Source: an uncultured Desulfobacterales bacterium (lineage in GTDB: Bacteria > Desulfobacterota > Desulfobacteria > Desulfobacterales > C00003060). Taken from it: a stretch of 64,000 nt of DNA. The translations under genes were made by a program, and so were the position numbers. Below are positions 3,206 through 16,184 of this stretch, in pieces. The stretch lies in assembly GCA_964440795.1 (NCBI GenBank), contig CAYTTQ010000002.1:21106-85105 (forward strand), read 5' to 3'. Position 1 is the first letter of the stretch. Each line of letters starts with the position of its first letter. Below the pieces are notes generated by a model that ran no database searches, was not told the origin of the DNA, and saw only the letters and a list, made by a program, of their open reading frames with translations.

Positions 3206-4846
3206 TCAGCGGTGTTTGTAATCGAGGGCGGCCCGAATGAAAGAAACGAATAACGGGTGGGGATCCATGGGTCGCGACTTGAATTCGGGATGAAACTGAC
3301 ATCCCAGAAACCAGGGATGATCCGAAATCTCCACGATCTCCACCAGCTGTTCATCCGGTGACGTCCCGCTCATGATCAGCCCCGCCTCCGCCAACCGCGC
3401 TTTCATCTCATTGTTGAACTCATAGCGGTGCCGGTGCCTTTCCGAAATCTCGGACTTGTGATACGCCTTGAAGGCCAGCGAGTCGTCTTCCAGTCGGCAG
3501 GGATACGCCCCCAGCCGCATCGTCCCCCCTTTGTCAGAGGTAACATTGCGTTGCTGTACGGTCTGGGACTGGTAATCAAACCACTCTTTCATCAGGTAAA
3601 TGACCGGAAACGGGGTGTTCAGGTCAAATTCGGTGCTGTGGGCCTCCGGCATCCCGGCCACATGGCGGGCATATTCCACCACCGCCATCTGCATGCCCAG
3701 GCAGATCCCGAAAAAGGGAATGCCCTGTTCCCGGCTCTGGCGGATGGCGCGAATCTTTCCTTCGATCCCTCGGGATCCGAACCCCCCCGGGACCAAAACC
3801 CCATGGGCGTTACACAATCGCTCAGCGCAGTTGTCGTCGCCGATTTCCTCGGAATCCACAAAGTCCAGGATGACCCGGCTCTCGTTGGCCACCCCGCCGT
3901 GAAAGAGGGCCTCGTTGAGACTCTTGTATGACTCCTTGAGATCGATGTACTTGCCCACAATGGCGATGGTGACCGTGTCTTTGGGATTCTTGCTCTTTTC
4001 GACAAACGCTTCCCACTCCTCGAGCCGGGGAGCCCGGGTCCAAATGTTGAGCAGTTCGGTTATCTTGTCATCCAGATGTTGCTGGTGAAAGATCAGCGGC
4101 ACTTCATAGATAAGATCCACATCCTTGGCCGTAACCACCTGATCCACCCCCAAGTTACAAAACAGGCCGATCTTTTTCTTGATCTCGTCGGACAAAAATC
4201 GGTCCGTCCGGCACAGCAGGATATCGGGCTGAATGCCGATGCTGCGAAGCTCCTTGACACTGTGCTGCGTGGGCTTGGTTTTTAACTCCCCGGCCGCCGG
4301 CATATAGGGCACCAACGTCAAGTGGACGTATAAGACATTGTCCTTGCCGGCATCCGCTTTGAACTGCCGGATGGCCTCTTGAAAGGGCAGACTTTCGATG
4401 TCGCCGATGGTTCCCCCGATCTCGATGATGACCACGTCCACGCCTTCGGCCACCGACTTGATACTCGCCTTGATCTCGTCCGTAATGTGGGGAATCACCT
4501 GGACCGTGCCGCCCAGATAATCGCCTCGCCGCTCTTTCGTTATCACCGAATCATAGATCTTGCCCGTGGTGAAGTTGCTGTTGCGGCCCAGCTGGGCATG
4601 GGTGAATCGTTCGTAATGACCCAGGTCAAGATCGGTCTCGGCACCATCATCGGTGACAAACACCTCTCCGTGCTGAAAGGGATTCATGGTGCCGGGATCG
4701 ACGTTGATGTAGGGGTCCAGTTTCTGCAGGGTAATGGTCAGACCTCGGCTTTCCAGGAGCGCTCCGATCGACGCCGATGCCAGGCCTTTACCCAGGGAAG
4801 ACAACACACCGCCGGTTACAAAGATAAACTTGGTAGGAAAAGACAT
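3206..4846 (-). CDS. pyrG: CTP synthase
   Basis: 546 aa. N-terminus [16 protein letters not shown] and a C-terminal GATase-1 domain (GICLGMQ). Confidence 0.95.
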
Positions 4847-4873
4847 ATCAGGGAAACATCCTCCACGATGAAT

Positions 4874-15012: not shown

Positions 15013-15092
15013 TGCTGGACCCTTTCTTTACCACAGGACCGGGCCCGGGGTATCTGCGGCCCCCACCCTTTCAGGCCGATCGTGGCACCCGC

Positions 15093-16184
15093 TCAGCCAA
15101 CTTTTCTCCTGTTTATGATCTCGACAAATTCGTCGAACAGATAGTGGGCATCGTGAGGTCCCGGGAAGGCCTCCGGATGGTACTGGACGGAGAAAATCGG
15201 CAATTCCCGATGTCTCAGCCCCTCGACGGTATTGTCGTTTAGGTTCATATGGGTGATCTCCACTTGGGCGTCGGTAATGGAATCGACATCCACACAAAAC
15301 CCGTGATTTTGGGCGGTAATCTCCACTTTTCCCGTGGATAGATTCTTCACCGGGTGGTTGGACCCGTGATGACCGAATTTCAGTTTGTAGGTCCGTCCGC
15401 CGAAGGCCAGCCCCAACAACTGATGTCCCAGGCAAATACCGAAAATCGGATACCGGGGGATCAAGGCCCGAATCGTGTCTACCACGTAGGATAGCGGTTC
15501 CGGATCTCCGGGTCCGTTGGAGAGCAAAATGCCATCCGGATTCATGGCCTGGATGACTTCCGCCGAGGTGTGGGCGGGCACGACGGTGACCGCAAAATTT
15601 CGTTTGGCCATGCTCCGGGCCATGTTGTATTTCATGCCGCAATCAACAATCACCACGGATAATGCCGCATCCGGTTCTCGGGGCCATTCATAGGGGTGTT
15701 CGCAGGTCACATACCGGATCAGGTCTCGTCCAACCAGACTGGGAAAAGCCGCCGCCTTTTCCGCCAAGGCCCGGGGATCCGATGCCTCTGTAGAGATAAT
15801 CCCCCGCATGGCCCCGGCCCGGCGAATGTGCCGGGTAAGCGCCCGGGTGTCCACCCCTTCAATGCCGATCACCCCGTGCCGGTCCAAGTAGTCGGCCAGG
15901 GATTCTTGGGAGGCCCAGTTGCTGGGCACCGGTTCATATTCTCGAACCACAAACCCTTCCGCCTGAACCCGAGACGATTCGACATCCGTTTCGTTGACCC
16001 CATAGTTTCCGATCAGGGGGTAGGTCATGGTCACGATTTGACCCTTGTAAGAGGGGTCGGTGAGGATTTCTTGATACCCCGTCATGCTGGTGTTAAACAC
16101 CACCTCCCCCAATGTCTCGCCCCGTCCGGCGAAAACCCGGCCGGGAAAATACGTCCCGTCTTCCAGTACCAGCAGGCCGTTCAT
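15093..16184 (-). CDS. carA: Carbamoyl-phosphate synthase small subunit
   Basis: MNGLLVLEDGTYFPG... and a GATase-1 domain (GICLGHQ). Start moved to ATG 16184, which has AGGAAA 8 nt upstream. The track ORF starts at 16214. Confidence 0.93.
   Translation of the reverse strand: MNGLLVLEDGTYFPGRVFAGRGETLGEVVFNTSMTGYQEILTDPSYKGQIVTMTYPLIGNYGVNETDVESSRVQAEGFVVREYEPVPSNWASQESLADYLDRHGVIGIEGVDTRALTRHIRRAGAMRGIISTEASDPRALAEKAAAFPSLVGRDLIRYVTCEHPYEWPREPDAALSVVIVDCGMKYNMARSMAKRNFAVTVVPAHTSAEVIQAMNPDGILLSNGPGDPEPLSYVVDTIRALIPRYPIFGICLGHQLLGLAFGGRTYKLKFGHHGSNHPVKNLSTGKVEITAQNHGFCVDVDSITDAQVEITHMNLNDNTVEGLRHRELPIFSVQYHPEAFPGPHDAHYLFDEFVEIINRRKVG

What the first reader, a model, noticed from the sequence alone, without database searches (positions are those of the whole stretch)
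3206..16184. Co-directional cluster in which five of six genes are glutamine amidotransferases (carA-guaA-carB-purF-GlmS-like-pyrG)
All six genes lie on the minus strand with short gaps: 80, -1, 144, 72 and 27 nt. CarA, GuaA and PyrG carry class-I GATase domains. PurF and the 1226-aa protein carry class-II domains. CarB is CarA's partner. The genes serve different pathways (arginine/pyrimidine, GMP, purine, an unknown sugar-phosphate-type reaction, CTP). Their shared feature is glutamine as nitrogen donor. This suggests co-regulation by glutamine or nitrogen status rather than by pathway end-products.
Basis: partly seen in the sequence, partly recalled or inferred. Interest (0 to 1): 0.55.

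Follow-up and report, generated by a model that had tools for sequence, protein, structure and literature searches.

The report
Conserved operon of glutamine amidotransferases
Six adjacent same-strand genes encode five glutamine-using enzymes from unrelated pathways, and related sulfate-reducer and syntroph genomes keep, reshuffle and extend this grouping, in this organism's clade behind one shared promoter, so the genes appear to be grouped by their common nitrogen donor rather than by pathway.

Summary
carA, guaA, carB, purF, a 1226-aa GlmS-like gene and pyrG lie head-to-tail on the minus strand (3206-16184) with gaps of 80, -1, 144, 72 and 27 nt. The block is bounded by a divergent and a convergent gene.

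The grouping is not an accident of this genome. In an uncultured Desulfobacterales-related clade the block recurs in variable forms. Most genes that join it are also glutamine-dependent (hisH/hisF, nadE, an adjacent asnB) or make glutamine (glnA). The exceptions are a kdsB/Fe-ADH/DegT sugar trio and a citrate synthase.

A 27-nt sigma-70-like promoter element heads the block in 11 loci, whether carA, guaA or hisH comes first.

In Syntrophales contigs the core carA-guaA-carB-purF follows glutamine synthetase, split glutamate-synthase-like genes and a GAF/sigma-54 activator.

The glutamine theme is therefore supported. Regulation by glutamine or nitrogen status is not shown. No sigma-54 site faces carA, and no known riboswitch was found.

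The GlmS-like protein keeps the GlmS catalytic residues. It also has a 40-aa leader before its catalytic Cys and three large uncharacterised additions.

No description of such a cluster turned up in the searchable literature.

The parts
16401..16427 (-). Conserved promoter-like element at the head of the block: TTGAAAGA-N11-TGATACAA. It reads as a -35 TTGAAA, a 16-nt spacer and an extended -10 TGnTACAAA, with a T-rich stretch just upstream.
   Evidence: It is the only match in the window, with 0 expected in 100 shuffles. The same pattern matches once in each of 9 related loci, always just upstream of the first cluster gene, and nowhere else in 172 loci. A looser scan adds L087, giving 11 loci, aligned.
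16185..16400 (-). Presumed 5' leader of carA (about 216 nt if transcription starts just after the -10).
   Evidence: Partly conserved in L093 and L094. No Rfam family at E<=10 beyond chance-level hits. The role of the leader is unknown. Clusters headed by hisH in relatives have almost no leader.
15093..16184 (-). carA, the small (glutaminase) subunit of carbamoyl-phosphate synthase; class-I amidotransferase.
   Evidence: TIGR01368 522 bits, PF00988 and PF00117. The start codon is supported by the L093 and L094 alignment.
15013..15092 (-). 80-nt carA-guaA spacer with a GC-rich hairpin and no T-run.
   Evidence: Minimum free energy -29.9 kcal/mol. Not reported as terminator-like.
13483..15012 (-). 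guaA, glutamine-hydrolysing GMP synthase; class-I amidotransferase.
   Evidence: NF000848 811 bits.
10211..13483 (-). carB, the large subunit of carbamoyl-phosphate synthase (partner of CarA). Its GTG start overlaps the guaA stop codon by 1 nt.
   Evidence: NF003671 1681 bits, with the match starting at residue 44 of the long ORF. Junction sequence ...GAATAGTGCCGAAG....
10067..10210 (-). 144-nt carB-purF spacer. Its 3' half is A/T-rich and ends in an AGGAGA ribosome-binding site. An internal promoter cannot be excluded.
   Evidence: Sequence and fold. No consensus promoter or terminator hit. No Rfam hit.
8627..10066 (-). purF, amidophosphoribosyltransferase; class-II amidotransferase with a 24-residue leader before the catalytic Cys.
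   Evidence: TIGR01134 538 bits. Start-codon analysis.
4874..8554 (-). Giant GlmS-like glutamine:sugar-phosphate amidotransferase (1226 aa), here called glmSL. It has a conserved 40-aa leader, Cys41-Gly42, an insert of about 170 aa in the glutaminase domain, two SIS domains, an insert of about 110 aa, a GlmS-like 'HQAKTVTVG' tail motif and a C-terminal domain of about 200 aa.
   Evidence: PF13522 and PF01380; glmS models at 244-262 bits, below their cutoffs. Invariant residues in 20-34 homologues. Residue-by-residue match to E. coli GlmS. The model's best PDB matches are GFAT-1 and GlmS, with a target-normalised TM-score (TMt) of about 0.64. The additions have no Pfam family. The C-terminal domain is found only at the end of proteins of this family or in shorter proteins, presumably fragments.
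3206..4846 (-). pyrG, CTP synthase; class-I amidotransferase. Last gene of the block.
   Evidence: NF003792 844 bits. It follows glmSL co-directionally in all but one of the close-clade loci whose contig extends past glmSL.
16313..16328 (+). Boundary feature, not part of the block: a sigma-54-type -24/-12 element (AGGCAC-CGAGA-TTGCA) facing the divergent AMP-nucleosidase gene.
   Evidence: 10 of 12 consensus positions. Conserved in L093 and L094, with substitutions only in the 5-nt spacer.
16570..17352 (+). Upstream boundary: divergent AMP-nucleosidase gene.
   Evidence: NF005500 276 bits, cutoff 264. PF01048. The same divergent neighbour is present in L093 and L094.
1823..3184 (+). Downstream boundary: convergent MASE1/HD-GYP signalling gene that ends 21 nt from the pyrG stop codon.
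   Evidence: PF13487 and PF01966. The same convergent neighbour is present in L081, L083, L089 and L090.

Best explanation
The six genes most likely form one operon driven by a conserved sigma-70-type promoter at 16401-16427 (minus strand).

The operon is one member of a family of variable 'glutamine amidotransferase' operons. They occur in an uncultured Desulfobacterales-related clade and, in a related layout, in Syntrophales. The organising principle is the shared substrate glutamine, not a shared pathway.

The likely effect is that the main enzymes draining glutamine amide nitrogen are made together and in fixed proportions. These enzymes produce carbamoyl phosphate, GMP, phosphoribosylamine, an amino sugar and CTP. 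In relatives they also produce imidazole-glycerol phosphate and NAD. In Syntrophales the core sits directly after the glutamine-producing and glutamate-producing enzymes.

Shown:
- gene identities and anatomy;
- conservation of the gene order;
- glutamine-related genes make up most of the recruits in relatives;
- a conserved head element.

Inferred:
- a single transcript;
- the head element is a promoter;
- the purpose of the clustering is coordinated expression.

Not shown: any response to glutamine or nitrogen status.
For: 1. Anatomy. One strand, gaps of -1 to 144 nt, a guaA-carB overlap suggesting translational coupling, no terminator-like site in any gap, and divergent and convergent boundaries.

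2. Conservation in the close clade (glmSL at least 57% identical; contexts):
- L001: carA-guaA-carB-purF-kdsB-glmSL-pyrG
- L086: asnB, then hisH-hisF-carA-guaA-carB-purF-glmSL-pyrG
- L084, L089, L090: guaA-carB-purF-(Fe-ADH, DegT, kdsB)-glmSL-pyrG
- L092: hisH-hisF-guaA-...-glmSL-pyrG
- L083: guaA-glmSL-pyrG
- L003: glmSL-pyrG-nadE
- L091: kdsB-glmSL-pyrG-activator-glnA-nadE-carB

3. Recruits confirmed above curated cutoffs: HisH, HisF, AsnB-type, glutamine-dependent NadE, type-I GlnA and a NifA-like activator.

4. Head element. It is present in 11 loci with three different first genes and absent elsewhere in 2.5 Mb of fetched loci.

5. A second lineage. Syntrophales contigs (taxon names) carry activator, GOGAT-like genes, GS (type I or III), then carA-guaA-carB-purF. 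Among 80 loci fetched with GuaA, carA is adjacent upstream in 29 of 61 with room, and carB follows in 19 of 39.

6. Separate recruitment in L124. A 42%-identical glmSL lies between carB and purF, with a duplicated purF 5' end.

7. Chance expectation is about 4e-8 per genome.
Against: - No transcript data exist, so a single transcript is inferred only.
- Some gaps could hold internal promoters: 144 nt here, and 140-340 nt in relatives.
- The head element could simply be a strong housekeeping promoter type of these organisms. The fetched DNA is biased to cluster neighbourhoods, so its genome-wide frequency is unknown.
- Five of the six genes also share another theme, nucleotide synthesis.
- In relatives the block contains non-glutamine genes (kdsB, Fe-ADH, DegT aminotransferase, citrate synthase).
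- In about 50 more distant Desulfobacterales, glmSL sits at the end of a different housekeeping array (lptD...holB-metG-PBP-kdsB), and pyrG is convergent to it.
- In Syntrophales, terminator-like hairpins and separate promoter-like motifs lie between the GS gene and carA, so source and sinks are probably not one transcript there.
Confidence: 0.6

Rival explanations
1. The block is a nucleotide-precursor or growth-rate operon. The genes are grouped because carAB, guaA, purF and pyrG all feed nucleotide synthesis and are needed in proportion to growth. Glutamine use is incidental, and glmSL is a passenger.
For: - Five of the six genes feed purine or pyrimidine synthesis.
- The head element looks like a strong constitutive sigma-70 promoter.
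- The block lies near origin-type markers and is co-oriented with the inferred replication direction.
- PRPP synthetase and enolase occur near glmSL in other Desulfobacterales.
Against: - No non-amidotransferase nucleotide gene (guaB, pyrB/C/D/E/F, purD/M/N/H) appears among the annotated genes of any variant of the block.
- The genes that do join include hisH-hisF (without hisA), glutamine-dependent nadE, glnA and glmSL, with asnB adjacent.
- In Syntrophales the core follows GS and GOGAT-like genes.
Confidence: 0.2
2. The block is a nitrogen-status regulon unit controlled by sigma-54 and an NtrC- or NifA-type activator that senses glutamine or 2-oxoglutarate.
For: - A GAF/sigma-54 activator that passes the NifA model cutoff lies directly after pyrG in L084, L085 and L091, next to asnB or glnA.
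- The same activator type heads the Syntrophales arrays, with -24/-12 sites just downstream of it in L125, L161 and L172.
- L088 has a perfect TGGCACGGGTTTTGCT upstream of kdsB-glmSL-pyrG.
Against: - In the window no -24/-12 site faces carA. The conserved one faces the other way.
- No activator gene is adjacent. The only one in the window, an FHA-type gene at 32346-33722, is 16 kb away.
- The element conserved at cluster heads is sigma-70-like.
- Sigma-54 sites are not found at cluster heads in the other close relatives.
Confidence: 0.12
3. The clustering serves protein assembly rather than transcription control. Enzymes translated side by side would form a physical glutamine-distributing assembly or a set of heteromers, and gene order reflects co-translational assembly.
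For: - Overlapping or abutting stop and start codons occur at guaA-carB here, and at hisH-hisF, hisF-carA, carA-guaA and carB-purF in L086.
- The odd but conserved placement of guaA between the two subunits of one enzyme is seen in both lineages.
Against: - No evidence of any interaction exists.
- Placing guaA between carA and carB is the opposite of what assembly of CarAB alone would favour.
- Gene content and order vary widely between relatives.
Confidence: 0.08
4. The juxtaposition is neutral. Rearrangements near the origin happened to bring these genes together in one lineage, and each gene keeps its own regulation.
For: - Gene content varies between relatives.
- Distant Desulfobacterales lack the block.
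Against: - Chance expectation is about 4e-8 per genome.
- The block recurs in two orders.
- Repeated gains are of glutamine-related genes.
- The head element stays in place although the first gene differs.
Confidence: 0.04

Closest known systems
carAB operon (E. coli and most bacteria)
   Same: carA and carB lie on one strand in one transcription unit. A survey of about 600 genomes found the two genes clustered in 72% (PMC3376133).
   Different: Here guaA sits between carA and carB and overlaps carB by 1 nt, an order conserved in two lineages. Four further genes from other pathways follow. The arginine- and pyrimidine-responsive tandem promoters of E. coli (background knowledge; review PMC6245113 was listed but not read) were not looked for in detail.
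Pathway operons that contain amidotransferases (B. subtilis pur and pyr operons, enterobacterial guaBA and hisGDCBHAF)
   Same: They contain purF, carAB (pyrAA/AB), guaA or hisH/hisF, co-transcribed with other genes.
   Different: Those operons group all steps of one pathway (background knowledge). This block takes only the glutamine-using step, plus its partner subunit, from each pathway. It leaves out guaB, hisA and the pyr and pur genes.
Supraoperons that mix pathways (for example the B. subtilis aromatic supraoperon trpEDCFBA-hisC-tyrA-aroE)
   Same: One long co-directional unit joins genes of several biosynthetic pathways (background knowledge).
   Different: The common thread there is linked aromatic and histidine metabolism. 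Here it is a shared co-substrate. Six searches of the held library, one for 'supraoperon' with 'glutamine', found no described glutamine-amidotransferase supraoperon.
Nitrogen-assimilation clusters (glnA-ntrBC; GS-GOGAT with sigma-54 activators)
   Same: In Syntrophales the core follows a GAF/sigma-54 activator, glutamate-synthase-like genes and glutamine synthetase. In L091 glnA and the activator lie inside the block.
   Different: The window has none of these genes next to the block and no sigma-54 site facing it. To my knowledge, classical Ntr regulons do not include carAB, guaA, purF or pyrG.
GlmS / GFAT (glutamine--fructose-6-phosphate aminotransferase), for the 1226-aa protein
   Same: The core fold matches (TMt about 0.64 to GFAT-1 and E. 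coli GlmS). The E. coli catalytic and binding residues align to invariant residues: R26, D29, W74, N98, G99, D123, S347-Q348-S349, T352, K485, E488 and H504.
   Different: It is twice the length and scores below the curated glmS cutoffs (244 against 418; 262 against 381). Its catalytic Cys lies behind a conserved 40-aa leader. It has three additions with no Pfam family. The family is small: 209 representative clusters matched its C-terminal domain.

Membership tests
Operon (single transcription unit) | All genes on one strand with no opposite-strand gene between them, bounded by divergent or convergent genes | tested here: met
Operon (single transcription unit) | Short or overlapping intergenic distances and no internal intrinsic terminator | tested here: met
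   Gaps are 80, -1, 144, 72 and 27 nt. No terminator-like site falls in a gap. This is only a consensus scan, and the 144-nt gap could hold a promoter.
Operon (single transcription unit) | A promoter at the head, conserved in relatives | tested here: met
   TTGMAAGW-N11-TGRTACAA at 16401-16427 and at the head of 9 related clusters. A looser pattern adds L087, giving 11 loci with the window. Promoter activity itself was not tested.
Operon (single transcription unit) | One transcript covering all genes | not testable with these tools
   Needs RNA-seq, 5'/3'-end mapping or RT-PCR across the junctions.
Class-I (triad) glutamine amidotransferase: CarA, GuaA, PyrG | PF00117 domain above cutoff, with the catalytic Cys in a G-x-C-x-G motif and a His-Pro-Glu motif | tested here: met
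   PF00117 scores 192, 154 and 133 bits. GICLGHQ / YHPE in CarA, GICYGLH / FHPE in GuaA and GICLGMQ / FHPE in PyrG are read directly from the translations.
Class-II (N-terminal nucleophile) glutamine amidotransferase: PurF and the 1226-aa protein | Class-II domain above cutoff | tested here: met
   PurF: PF13537 65.6 bits and TIGR01134 538 bits. The 1226-aa protein: PF13522 38.5 bits, cutoff 27.
Class-II (N-terminal nucleophile) glutamine amidotransferase: PurF and the 1226-aa protein | Catalytic Cys exposed as the first residue of the mature protein | tested here: inconclusive
   The Cys is residue 25 in PurF and residue 41 in the 1226-aa protein. No start codon directly precedes either. Both would need propeptide removal, which is known for some PurF and GltB enzymes (background knowledge). 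Cleavage cannot be tested here.
GlmS (TIGR01135 / NF001484) | Whole-protein score above the curated cutoff | tested here: not met
   243.5 against 418 and 261.5 against 381. Only residues 322-898 match.
GlmS (TIGR01135 / NF001484) | Glutaminase and isomerase catalytic residues of E. coli GlmS | tested here: met
   R26=R223, D29=D226, W74=W332, N98=N361, G99=G362, D123=D389, S347=S652 (Ser or Thr in homologues), Q348=Q653, S349=S654, T352=T657, K485=K793, E488=E796, H504=H812. All but S652 are invariant in 20 homologues.
GlmS (TIGR01135 / NF001484) | C-terminal tail with the Schiff-base Lys (K603 in ...LAKSVTVE) | tested here: inconclusive
   An invariant HQAKTVTVGTSR motif (K1023) resembles the tail, but it lies 200 residues from the C-terminus. 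No tool aligned it to GlmS, and the model is of low confidence there.
Sigma-54 / NtrC-type nitrogen regulon | -24/-12 element (GG-N10-GC) upstream of the first gene on the coding strand | tested here: not met
   None at 10 or more of 12 positions on the minus strand upstream of carA. The site at 16313-16328 is on the plus strand.
Sigma-54 / NtrC-type nitrogen regulon | Cognate activator and/or GS-GOGAT genes adjacent | tested here: not met
   Absent beside the block in the window. Present in the relatives L084, L085 and L091 and in Syntrophales arrays.
Pathway operon (pur, pyr, gua or his) | Non-amidotransferase steps of the same pathway encoded in the block | tested here: not met
   None appears among the six genes, nor among the Pfam- or NCBIfam-annotated genes of any related variant examined.
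Known regulatory RNA (glutamine riboswitch and other Rfam cis-regulators) | Covariance-model match in the leader or in the gaps | tested here: not met
   The only hit above gathering score in the whole window is a tRNA. Permissive searches of 16100-16650 and 8500-10300 gave only chance-level hits or none.

The most novel reading that the evidence does not exclude
These anaerobes may place most of their major glutamine sinks under one dedicated control point. In Syntrophales the glutamine source would be included too. The conserved head element would then be more than a generic promoter. The block would act as a 'glutamine budget' module that sets how amide nitrogen is divided between nucleotides, amino sugars, histidine, asparagine and NAD. 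The giant GlmS-like protein, with its leader and three unexplained domains, could be a regulated or sensing component rather than a plain enzyme.
Probability: 0.2. Interest if true: 0.8.

Novelty: new variant of a known kind. Interest (0 to 1): 0.6.

Why it matters
Operons are normally explained by shared pathway or shared complex. A conserved operon family built around a shared co-substrate would be a clear example of a different organising rule.

It would also give a handle on an open question: how cells divide glutamine nitrogen among competing biosyntheses.

The finding is directly testable. The conserved 27-nt head element, the odd carA-guaA-carB order and the variable membership all give predictions for transcript mapping and nitrogen-shift experiments. 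These can be run in cultured Syntrophales or Desulfobacterales, or on existing metatranscriptomes.

The block also draws attention to an uncharacterised GlmS-like family of about 1230 aa, found in several hundred species-representative genomes. This family may be the amino-sugar entry enzyme of many sulfate reducers.

Tried and rejected
- **Sigma-54 promoter for the block.** Both strands of the window and of related loci were scanned for GG-N10-GC consensus matches. None faces carA. The good site faces the divergent gene.
- **Known riboswitch or leader RNA.** Rfam at gathering and at permissive thresholds gave nothing.
- **Generic promoter and terminator scan.** It showed no enrichment and no hits in the gaps. 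The scan also missed the conserved head element, so it has little power either way.
- **Pfam on the additions of the GlmS-like protein.** No family. The PDB sequence search matched only the GlmS core.
- **The 376-aa 'MCRLFG...' gene heading the Syntrophales GOGAT-like trio.** It gave no Pfam, NCBIfam or PDB sequence match. I do not call it a glutaminase.
- **A canonical glmS in the same genomes.** tblastn of the fetched loci found none, but those loci cover only small parts of each genome.
- **Literature.** Six searches found no description of the cluster or of the giant GlmS family. The one candidate paper deals with pairing of glutaminase and synthetase within single enzymes.
- **Palindrome inside the head element (GTTGA-N11-TCAAT) as a repressor site.** Rejected, because it is not kept in the more distant loci.
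- **In-frame stop in the L124 GlmS-like gene as selenocysteine.** Rejected, because the codon is TAA.

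
Full report
**1. The observation**

The ORF list and translations, together with Pfam and NCBIfam scans, show six minus-strand genes between 3206 and 16184.

| Gene | Coordinates | Best model (bits) |
|---|---|---|
| carA | 15093-16184 | TIGR01368 (522) |
| guaA | 13483-15012 | NF000848 (811) |
| carB | 10211-13483 | NF003671 (1681) |
| purF | 8627-10066 | TIGR01134 (538) |
| GlmS-like, 1226 aa (called glmSL below) | 4874-8554 | PF13522 and PF01380 |
| pyrG | 3206-4846 | NF003792 (844) |

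- carA: the ATG at 16184 is conserved in a 96-98%-identical contig, while the upstream ATG at 16214 is AAG there.
- carB: it begins at a GTG sharing one base with the guaA TAG stop.
- purF: it begins at GTG 10066, behind an AGGAGA site, and no other in-frame start precedes the catalytic Cys.

The gaps are therefore 80, -1, 144, 72 and 27 nt.

The block is a closed directon. An AMP-nucleosidase gene diverges from carA, and an HD-GYP gene converges on pyrG.

With 15-22 amidotransferase genes among 3000-4500 genes, random gene order would give such a run about 4e-8 times per genome.

**2. Conservation in the closest clade**

The GlmS-like protein has hundreds of full-length homologues of about 1230 aa in Deltaproteobacteria/Thermodesulfobacteriota assemblies.

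I fetched loci around them from species-representative genomes and from the contigs encoding individual homologues. I mapped the cluster genes by tblastn and by ORF clustering.

In the clade whose glmSL is at least 57% identical to the window's, pyrG follows glmSL on the same strand in every locus whose contig extends past glmSL, except one (L076). Further amidotransferase genes are attached in most loci.

| Locus | Gene order |
|---|---|
| L001 | carA-guaA-carB-purF-kdsB-glmSL-pyrG |
| L081, L082 | carB-purF-glmSL-pyrG (contig ends) |
| L083 | guaA-glmSL-pyrG |
| L084, L085 | guaA-carB-purF-FeADH-DegT-kdsB-glmSL-pyrG-activator-asnB |
| L089, L090 | guaA-carB-purF-FeADH-DegT-kdsB-glmSL-pyrG |
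| L086 | asnB, then hisH-hisF-carA-guaA-carB-purF-glmSL-pyrG |
| L087 | hisH-guaA-FeADH-DegT-kdsB-glmSL-pyrG |
| L092 | hisH-hisF-guaA-FeADH-DegT-kdsB-glmSL-pyrG-citrate synthase |
| L003 | glmSL-pyrG-nadE |
| L091 | kdsB-glmSL-pyrG-activator-glnA-nadE-carB |

In L086 several stop and start codons overlap.

NCBIfam places the recruits above curated cutoffs:
- HisH, 218 bits;
- HisF, 361 bits;
- asparagine synthase type, 472 bits;
- glutamine-dependent NAD synthase, 670 bits;
- type-I glutamine synthetase, 531 bits;
- a GAF/sigma-54 activator that passes the NifA model, 546 bits.

None of the Pfam- or NCBIfam-annotated genes in any variant is a non-amidotransferase step of purine, pyrimidine, guanine or histidine synthesis. 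Two cases stand out:
- hisH and hisF appear without hisA;
- guaA appears without guaB.

That is the main argument that glutamine use, not pathway, is the common thread.

**3. A conserved element at the head of the block**

I aligned the carA upstream region with the two nearest contigs. One block stayed intact while its flanks diverged. The block reads: T-rich stretch, TTGAAAGA, 11 nt, TGATACAA. I interpret it as a -35 box, a 16-nt spacer and an extended -10 box.

Two results show how specific it is.
- The pattern TTGMAAGW-N11-TGRTACAA occurs once in the window, at 16401-16427 on the minus strand. None is expected in 100 shuffles.
- It occurs once in each of nine related loci and nowhere else in the 172 loci held, about 2.5 Mb.

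A looser scan adds L087. The eleven sites align well.

Every site lies just upstream of the first gene of the local cluster:
- carA in the window, L093, L094 and L001;
- guaA in L083 and L095;
- hisH in L086, L087, L092, L096 and L098.

So the head element has stayed in place while genes were added or lost behind it. This is the best available evidence that the block is one transcription unit.

Two caveats apply. Promoter activity is inferred. The fetched DNA is biased toward these neighbourhoods, so the genome-wide frequency of the motif is unknown.

**4. A second lineage**

I scanned metagenome contigs with the window's GuaA and mapped a panel of proteins onto the hits.

About thirty contigs with GuaA 71-75% identical carry carA-guaA-carB-purF. 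Identical or 90%-clustered GuaA proteins from these contigs are named Syntrophales in NCBI records.

Counts among the 80 loci fetched with GuaA:

| Neighbour of guaA | Loci with room | Loci with it |
|---|---|---|
| carA adjacent upstream | 61 | 29 |
| carB next downstream | 39 | 19 |
| purF beyond carB | 31 | 15 |

Upstream of carA, co-directionally, lie these genes in order:
- a GAF/sigma-54 activator;
- three genes, of which the second and third carry glutamate-synthase FMN, GXGXG and GltD-like domains;
- a glutamine synthetase.

The synthetase is type I in some contigs and type III in others, at the same position.

Sigma-54-type sites follow the activator gene in L125, L161 and L172.

Terminator-like hairpins and separate promoter-like motifs lie between the synthetase gene and carA. 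Source and sinks are therefore neighbours, but probably not one transcript.

Other arrangements:
- L107: GOGAT-like gene, then carA-carB-purF-hisH-hisF-guaA. One GuaA in the same 90%-identity cluster is named Candidatus Desulfaltia bathyphila; other members carry other taxon names.
- L119: pyrG-carA-guaA-carB.
- L124: glnA-carA-guaA-carB-glmSL-purF-hisH-hisF.

In L124 the glmSL copy is 42% identical to the window's. It carries one in-frame TAA. It is preceded by a duplicate of the first 25 or so codons of purF. This looks like the footprint of a separate insertion into the cluster.

**5. What this says about mechanism**

It does not support the specific mechanism.
- In the window no sigma-54 site faces carA.
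- The conserved GGCAC-N5-TTGCA at 16313-16328 faces the divergent AMP-nucleosidase gene. In L094 its only substitutions are in the spacer.
- No activator gene is adjacent to the block.
- Rfam finds no riboswitch in the leader or in the gaps.

The head element resembles a strong sigma-70 promoter.

My best reading is a co-expression unit that makes the main glutamine-consuming enzymes together. Any nitrogen signal would act by a factor not visible in the sequence, or after transcription.

I consider four rivals:
- a growth-rate or nucleotide logic;
- sigma-54 control;
- co-translational assembly;
- neutral drift.

The first remains plausible for this six-gene version taken alone. The last is disfavoured by recurrence, by repeated recruitment and by the stationary head element.

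**6. The GlmS-like protein**

Alignments of 20 and of 34 homologues show an invariant Cys41-Gly42 after a conserved leader (invariant F32-P33). The residue before the Cys is Ser, Asn or Gly, so no start codon can expose it.

A profile search against PDB sequences aligns residues 318-897 to E. coli GlmS. The E. coli catalytic or binding residues below fall on invariant residues of the family. S347 also aligns, to S652, which is Ser or Thr in the homologues.

| E. coli GlmS | Window protein |
|---|---|
| R26 | R223 |
| D29 | D226 |
| W74 | W332 |
| N98, G99 | N361, G362 |
| D123 | D389 |
| Q348, S349, T352 | Q653, S654, T657 |
| K485 | K793 |
| E488 | E796 |
| H504 | H812 |

An invariant HQAKTVTVG motif (K1023) resembles the GlmS C-terminal tail. 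That is my reading, not a tool alignment.

The AlphaFold model from Cys41 has a mean pLDDT of 72.7. Its best PDB matches are human GFAT-1 and E. coli GlmS, with a target-normalised TM-score of about 0.64.

The additions have no Pfam family:
- a helical insert of about 170 aa in the glutaminase domain;
- a helical insert of about 110 aa before the tail motif;
- a C-terminal domain of about 200 aa.

The C-terminal domain is found only at the end of proteins of this family, or in shorter proteins that are presumably fragments. It matched 209 representative clusters among 1.84 billion proteins.

In about 50 more distant Desulfobacterales the gene ends a housekeeping array. My by-eye reading of representative sequences gives lptD, a nusG-like gene, ihf, holB, a PSP1-type gene, metG and a penicillin-binding protein. 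kdsB, or an Fe-ADH/DegT pair, comes just before glmSL; these identities come from Pfam and NCBIfam on clade-A members of the same clusters. pyrG often lies convergent just downstream. That context fits an envelope amino-sugar role.

I therefore read the protein as a GlcN-6-P-synthase-like enzyme with added regulatory parts. It is not a confirmed GlmS. It fails the curated score cutoffs, and its Cys needs a cleavage that cannot be tested here.

**7. Novelty and score**

Six full-text searches found no description of this cluster or of the giant GlmS family. The nearest paper concerns pairing of glutaminase and synthetase within single enzymes. The library is incomplete, so prior description cannot be excluded.

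I rate the finding a new variant of a known kind: an operon or supraoperon organised by a shared co-substrate. Interest is 0.6.

Noticed in passing
window 4874-8554 (-): The 1226-aa protein belongs to an uncharacterised 'giant GlmS' family of about 1230 aa. It has a conserved 40-aa leader before the catalytic Cys, two helical inserts and a C-terminal domain unique to the family. In RefSeq-style records it is named only 'SIS domain-containing protein'.
   Followed up: yes
window 16313-16328 (+), upstream of 16570-17352 (+): A conserved sigma-54-type -24/-12 element (GGCAC-N5-TTGCA) faces the divergent AMP-nucleosidase gene. In L094 only its spacer differs. It lies inside the presumed carA leader, so the two transcription units may interfere with each other.
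   Followed up: partly
L124 9167-13015: A Syntrophales-type contig carries a 42%-identical glmSL between carB and purF. It is preceded by a duplicate of the first 25 or so codons of purF and interrupted by one in-frame TAA. It is either an insertion footprint with a pseudogene, or a sequencing error.
   Followed up: partly
window 23876-27779 (+), 36864-40371 (-); GC skew across the whole window: yidC-jag-mnmE and gyrB-dnaN are both in the window, and cumulative GC skew reaches its minimum at about 41-50 kb. The replication origin is therefore probably nearby. No dnaA was seen among the ORFs annotated (18 of 27 ORFs of at least 180 aa that start beyond 28 kb). The amidotransferase block would be origin-proximal and co-oriented with replication.
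   Followed up: partly
window 32000-40000, especially 33723-36146: This stretch has lower GC (0.475-0.56) and strongly negative GC skew (-0.21 to -0.32). It includes about 2.4 kb with no ORF of 180 aa or more and one tRNA (35192-35264, minus strand). Only one short tandem repeat was found (34968-34997).
   Followed up: no
window 17375-18398 (+): Na/Pi-cotransporter and PhoU domains are split over two short ORFs (17375-17734 and 17907-18398). This suggests a frameshifted or degraded gene, or sequencing errors.
   Followed up: no
L084 6360-9831; also L087, L089, L090, L092 and many Desulfobacterales loci: A trio of Fe-dependent alcohol dehydrogenase, DegT-type aminotransferase and KdsB sits directly upstream of glmSL. 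From memory this resembles the KdnB/KdnA/KdsB route to 8-amino-Kdo in Shewanella. I did not test that.
   Followed up: partly
L103 2613-3743 (and the equivalent gene in about 15 Syntrophales loci): A conserved 376-aa gene beginning MCRLFG heads the split glutamate-synthase-like trio. It has no Pfam, NCBIfam or PDB sequence match. By position it could be the missing glutaminase subunit.
   Followed up: partly
L088 8958-8973 (+): A perfect sigma-54 consensus, TGGCACGGGTTTTGCT, lies upstream of kdsB-glmSL-pyrG-citrate synthase in one relative. At least one version of the block may therefore be sigma-54-dependent.
   Followed up: partly
window 15013-15092 (-): The carA-guaA spacer folds into a GC-rich hairpin (-29.9 kcal/mol) with no T-run. 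It may be a processing or stability element. Its conservation was not examined.
   Followed up: no
window 36147-36845 (-): A 232-aa ORF next to gyrB gives only a weak, partial thymidylate-synthase match (PF00303, 39.8 bits, covering the C-terminal half of the profile).
   Followed up: no
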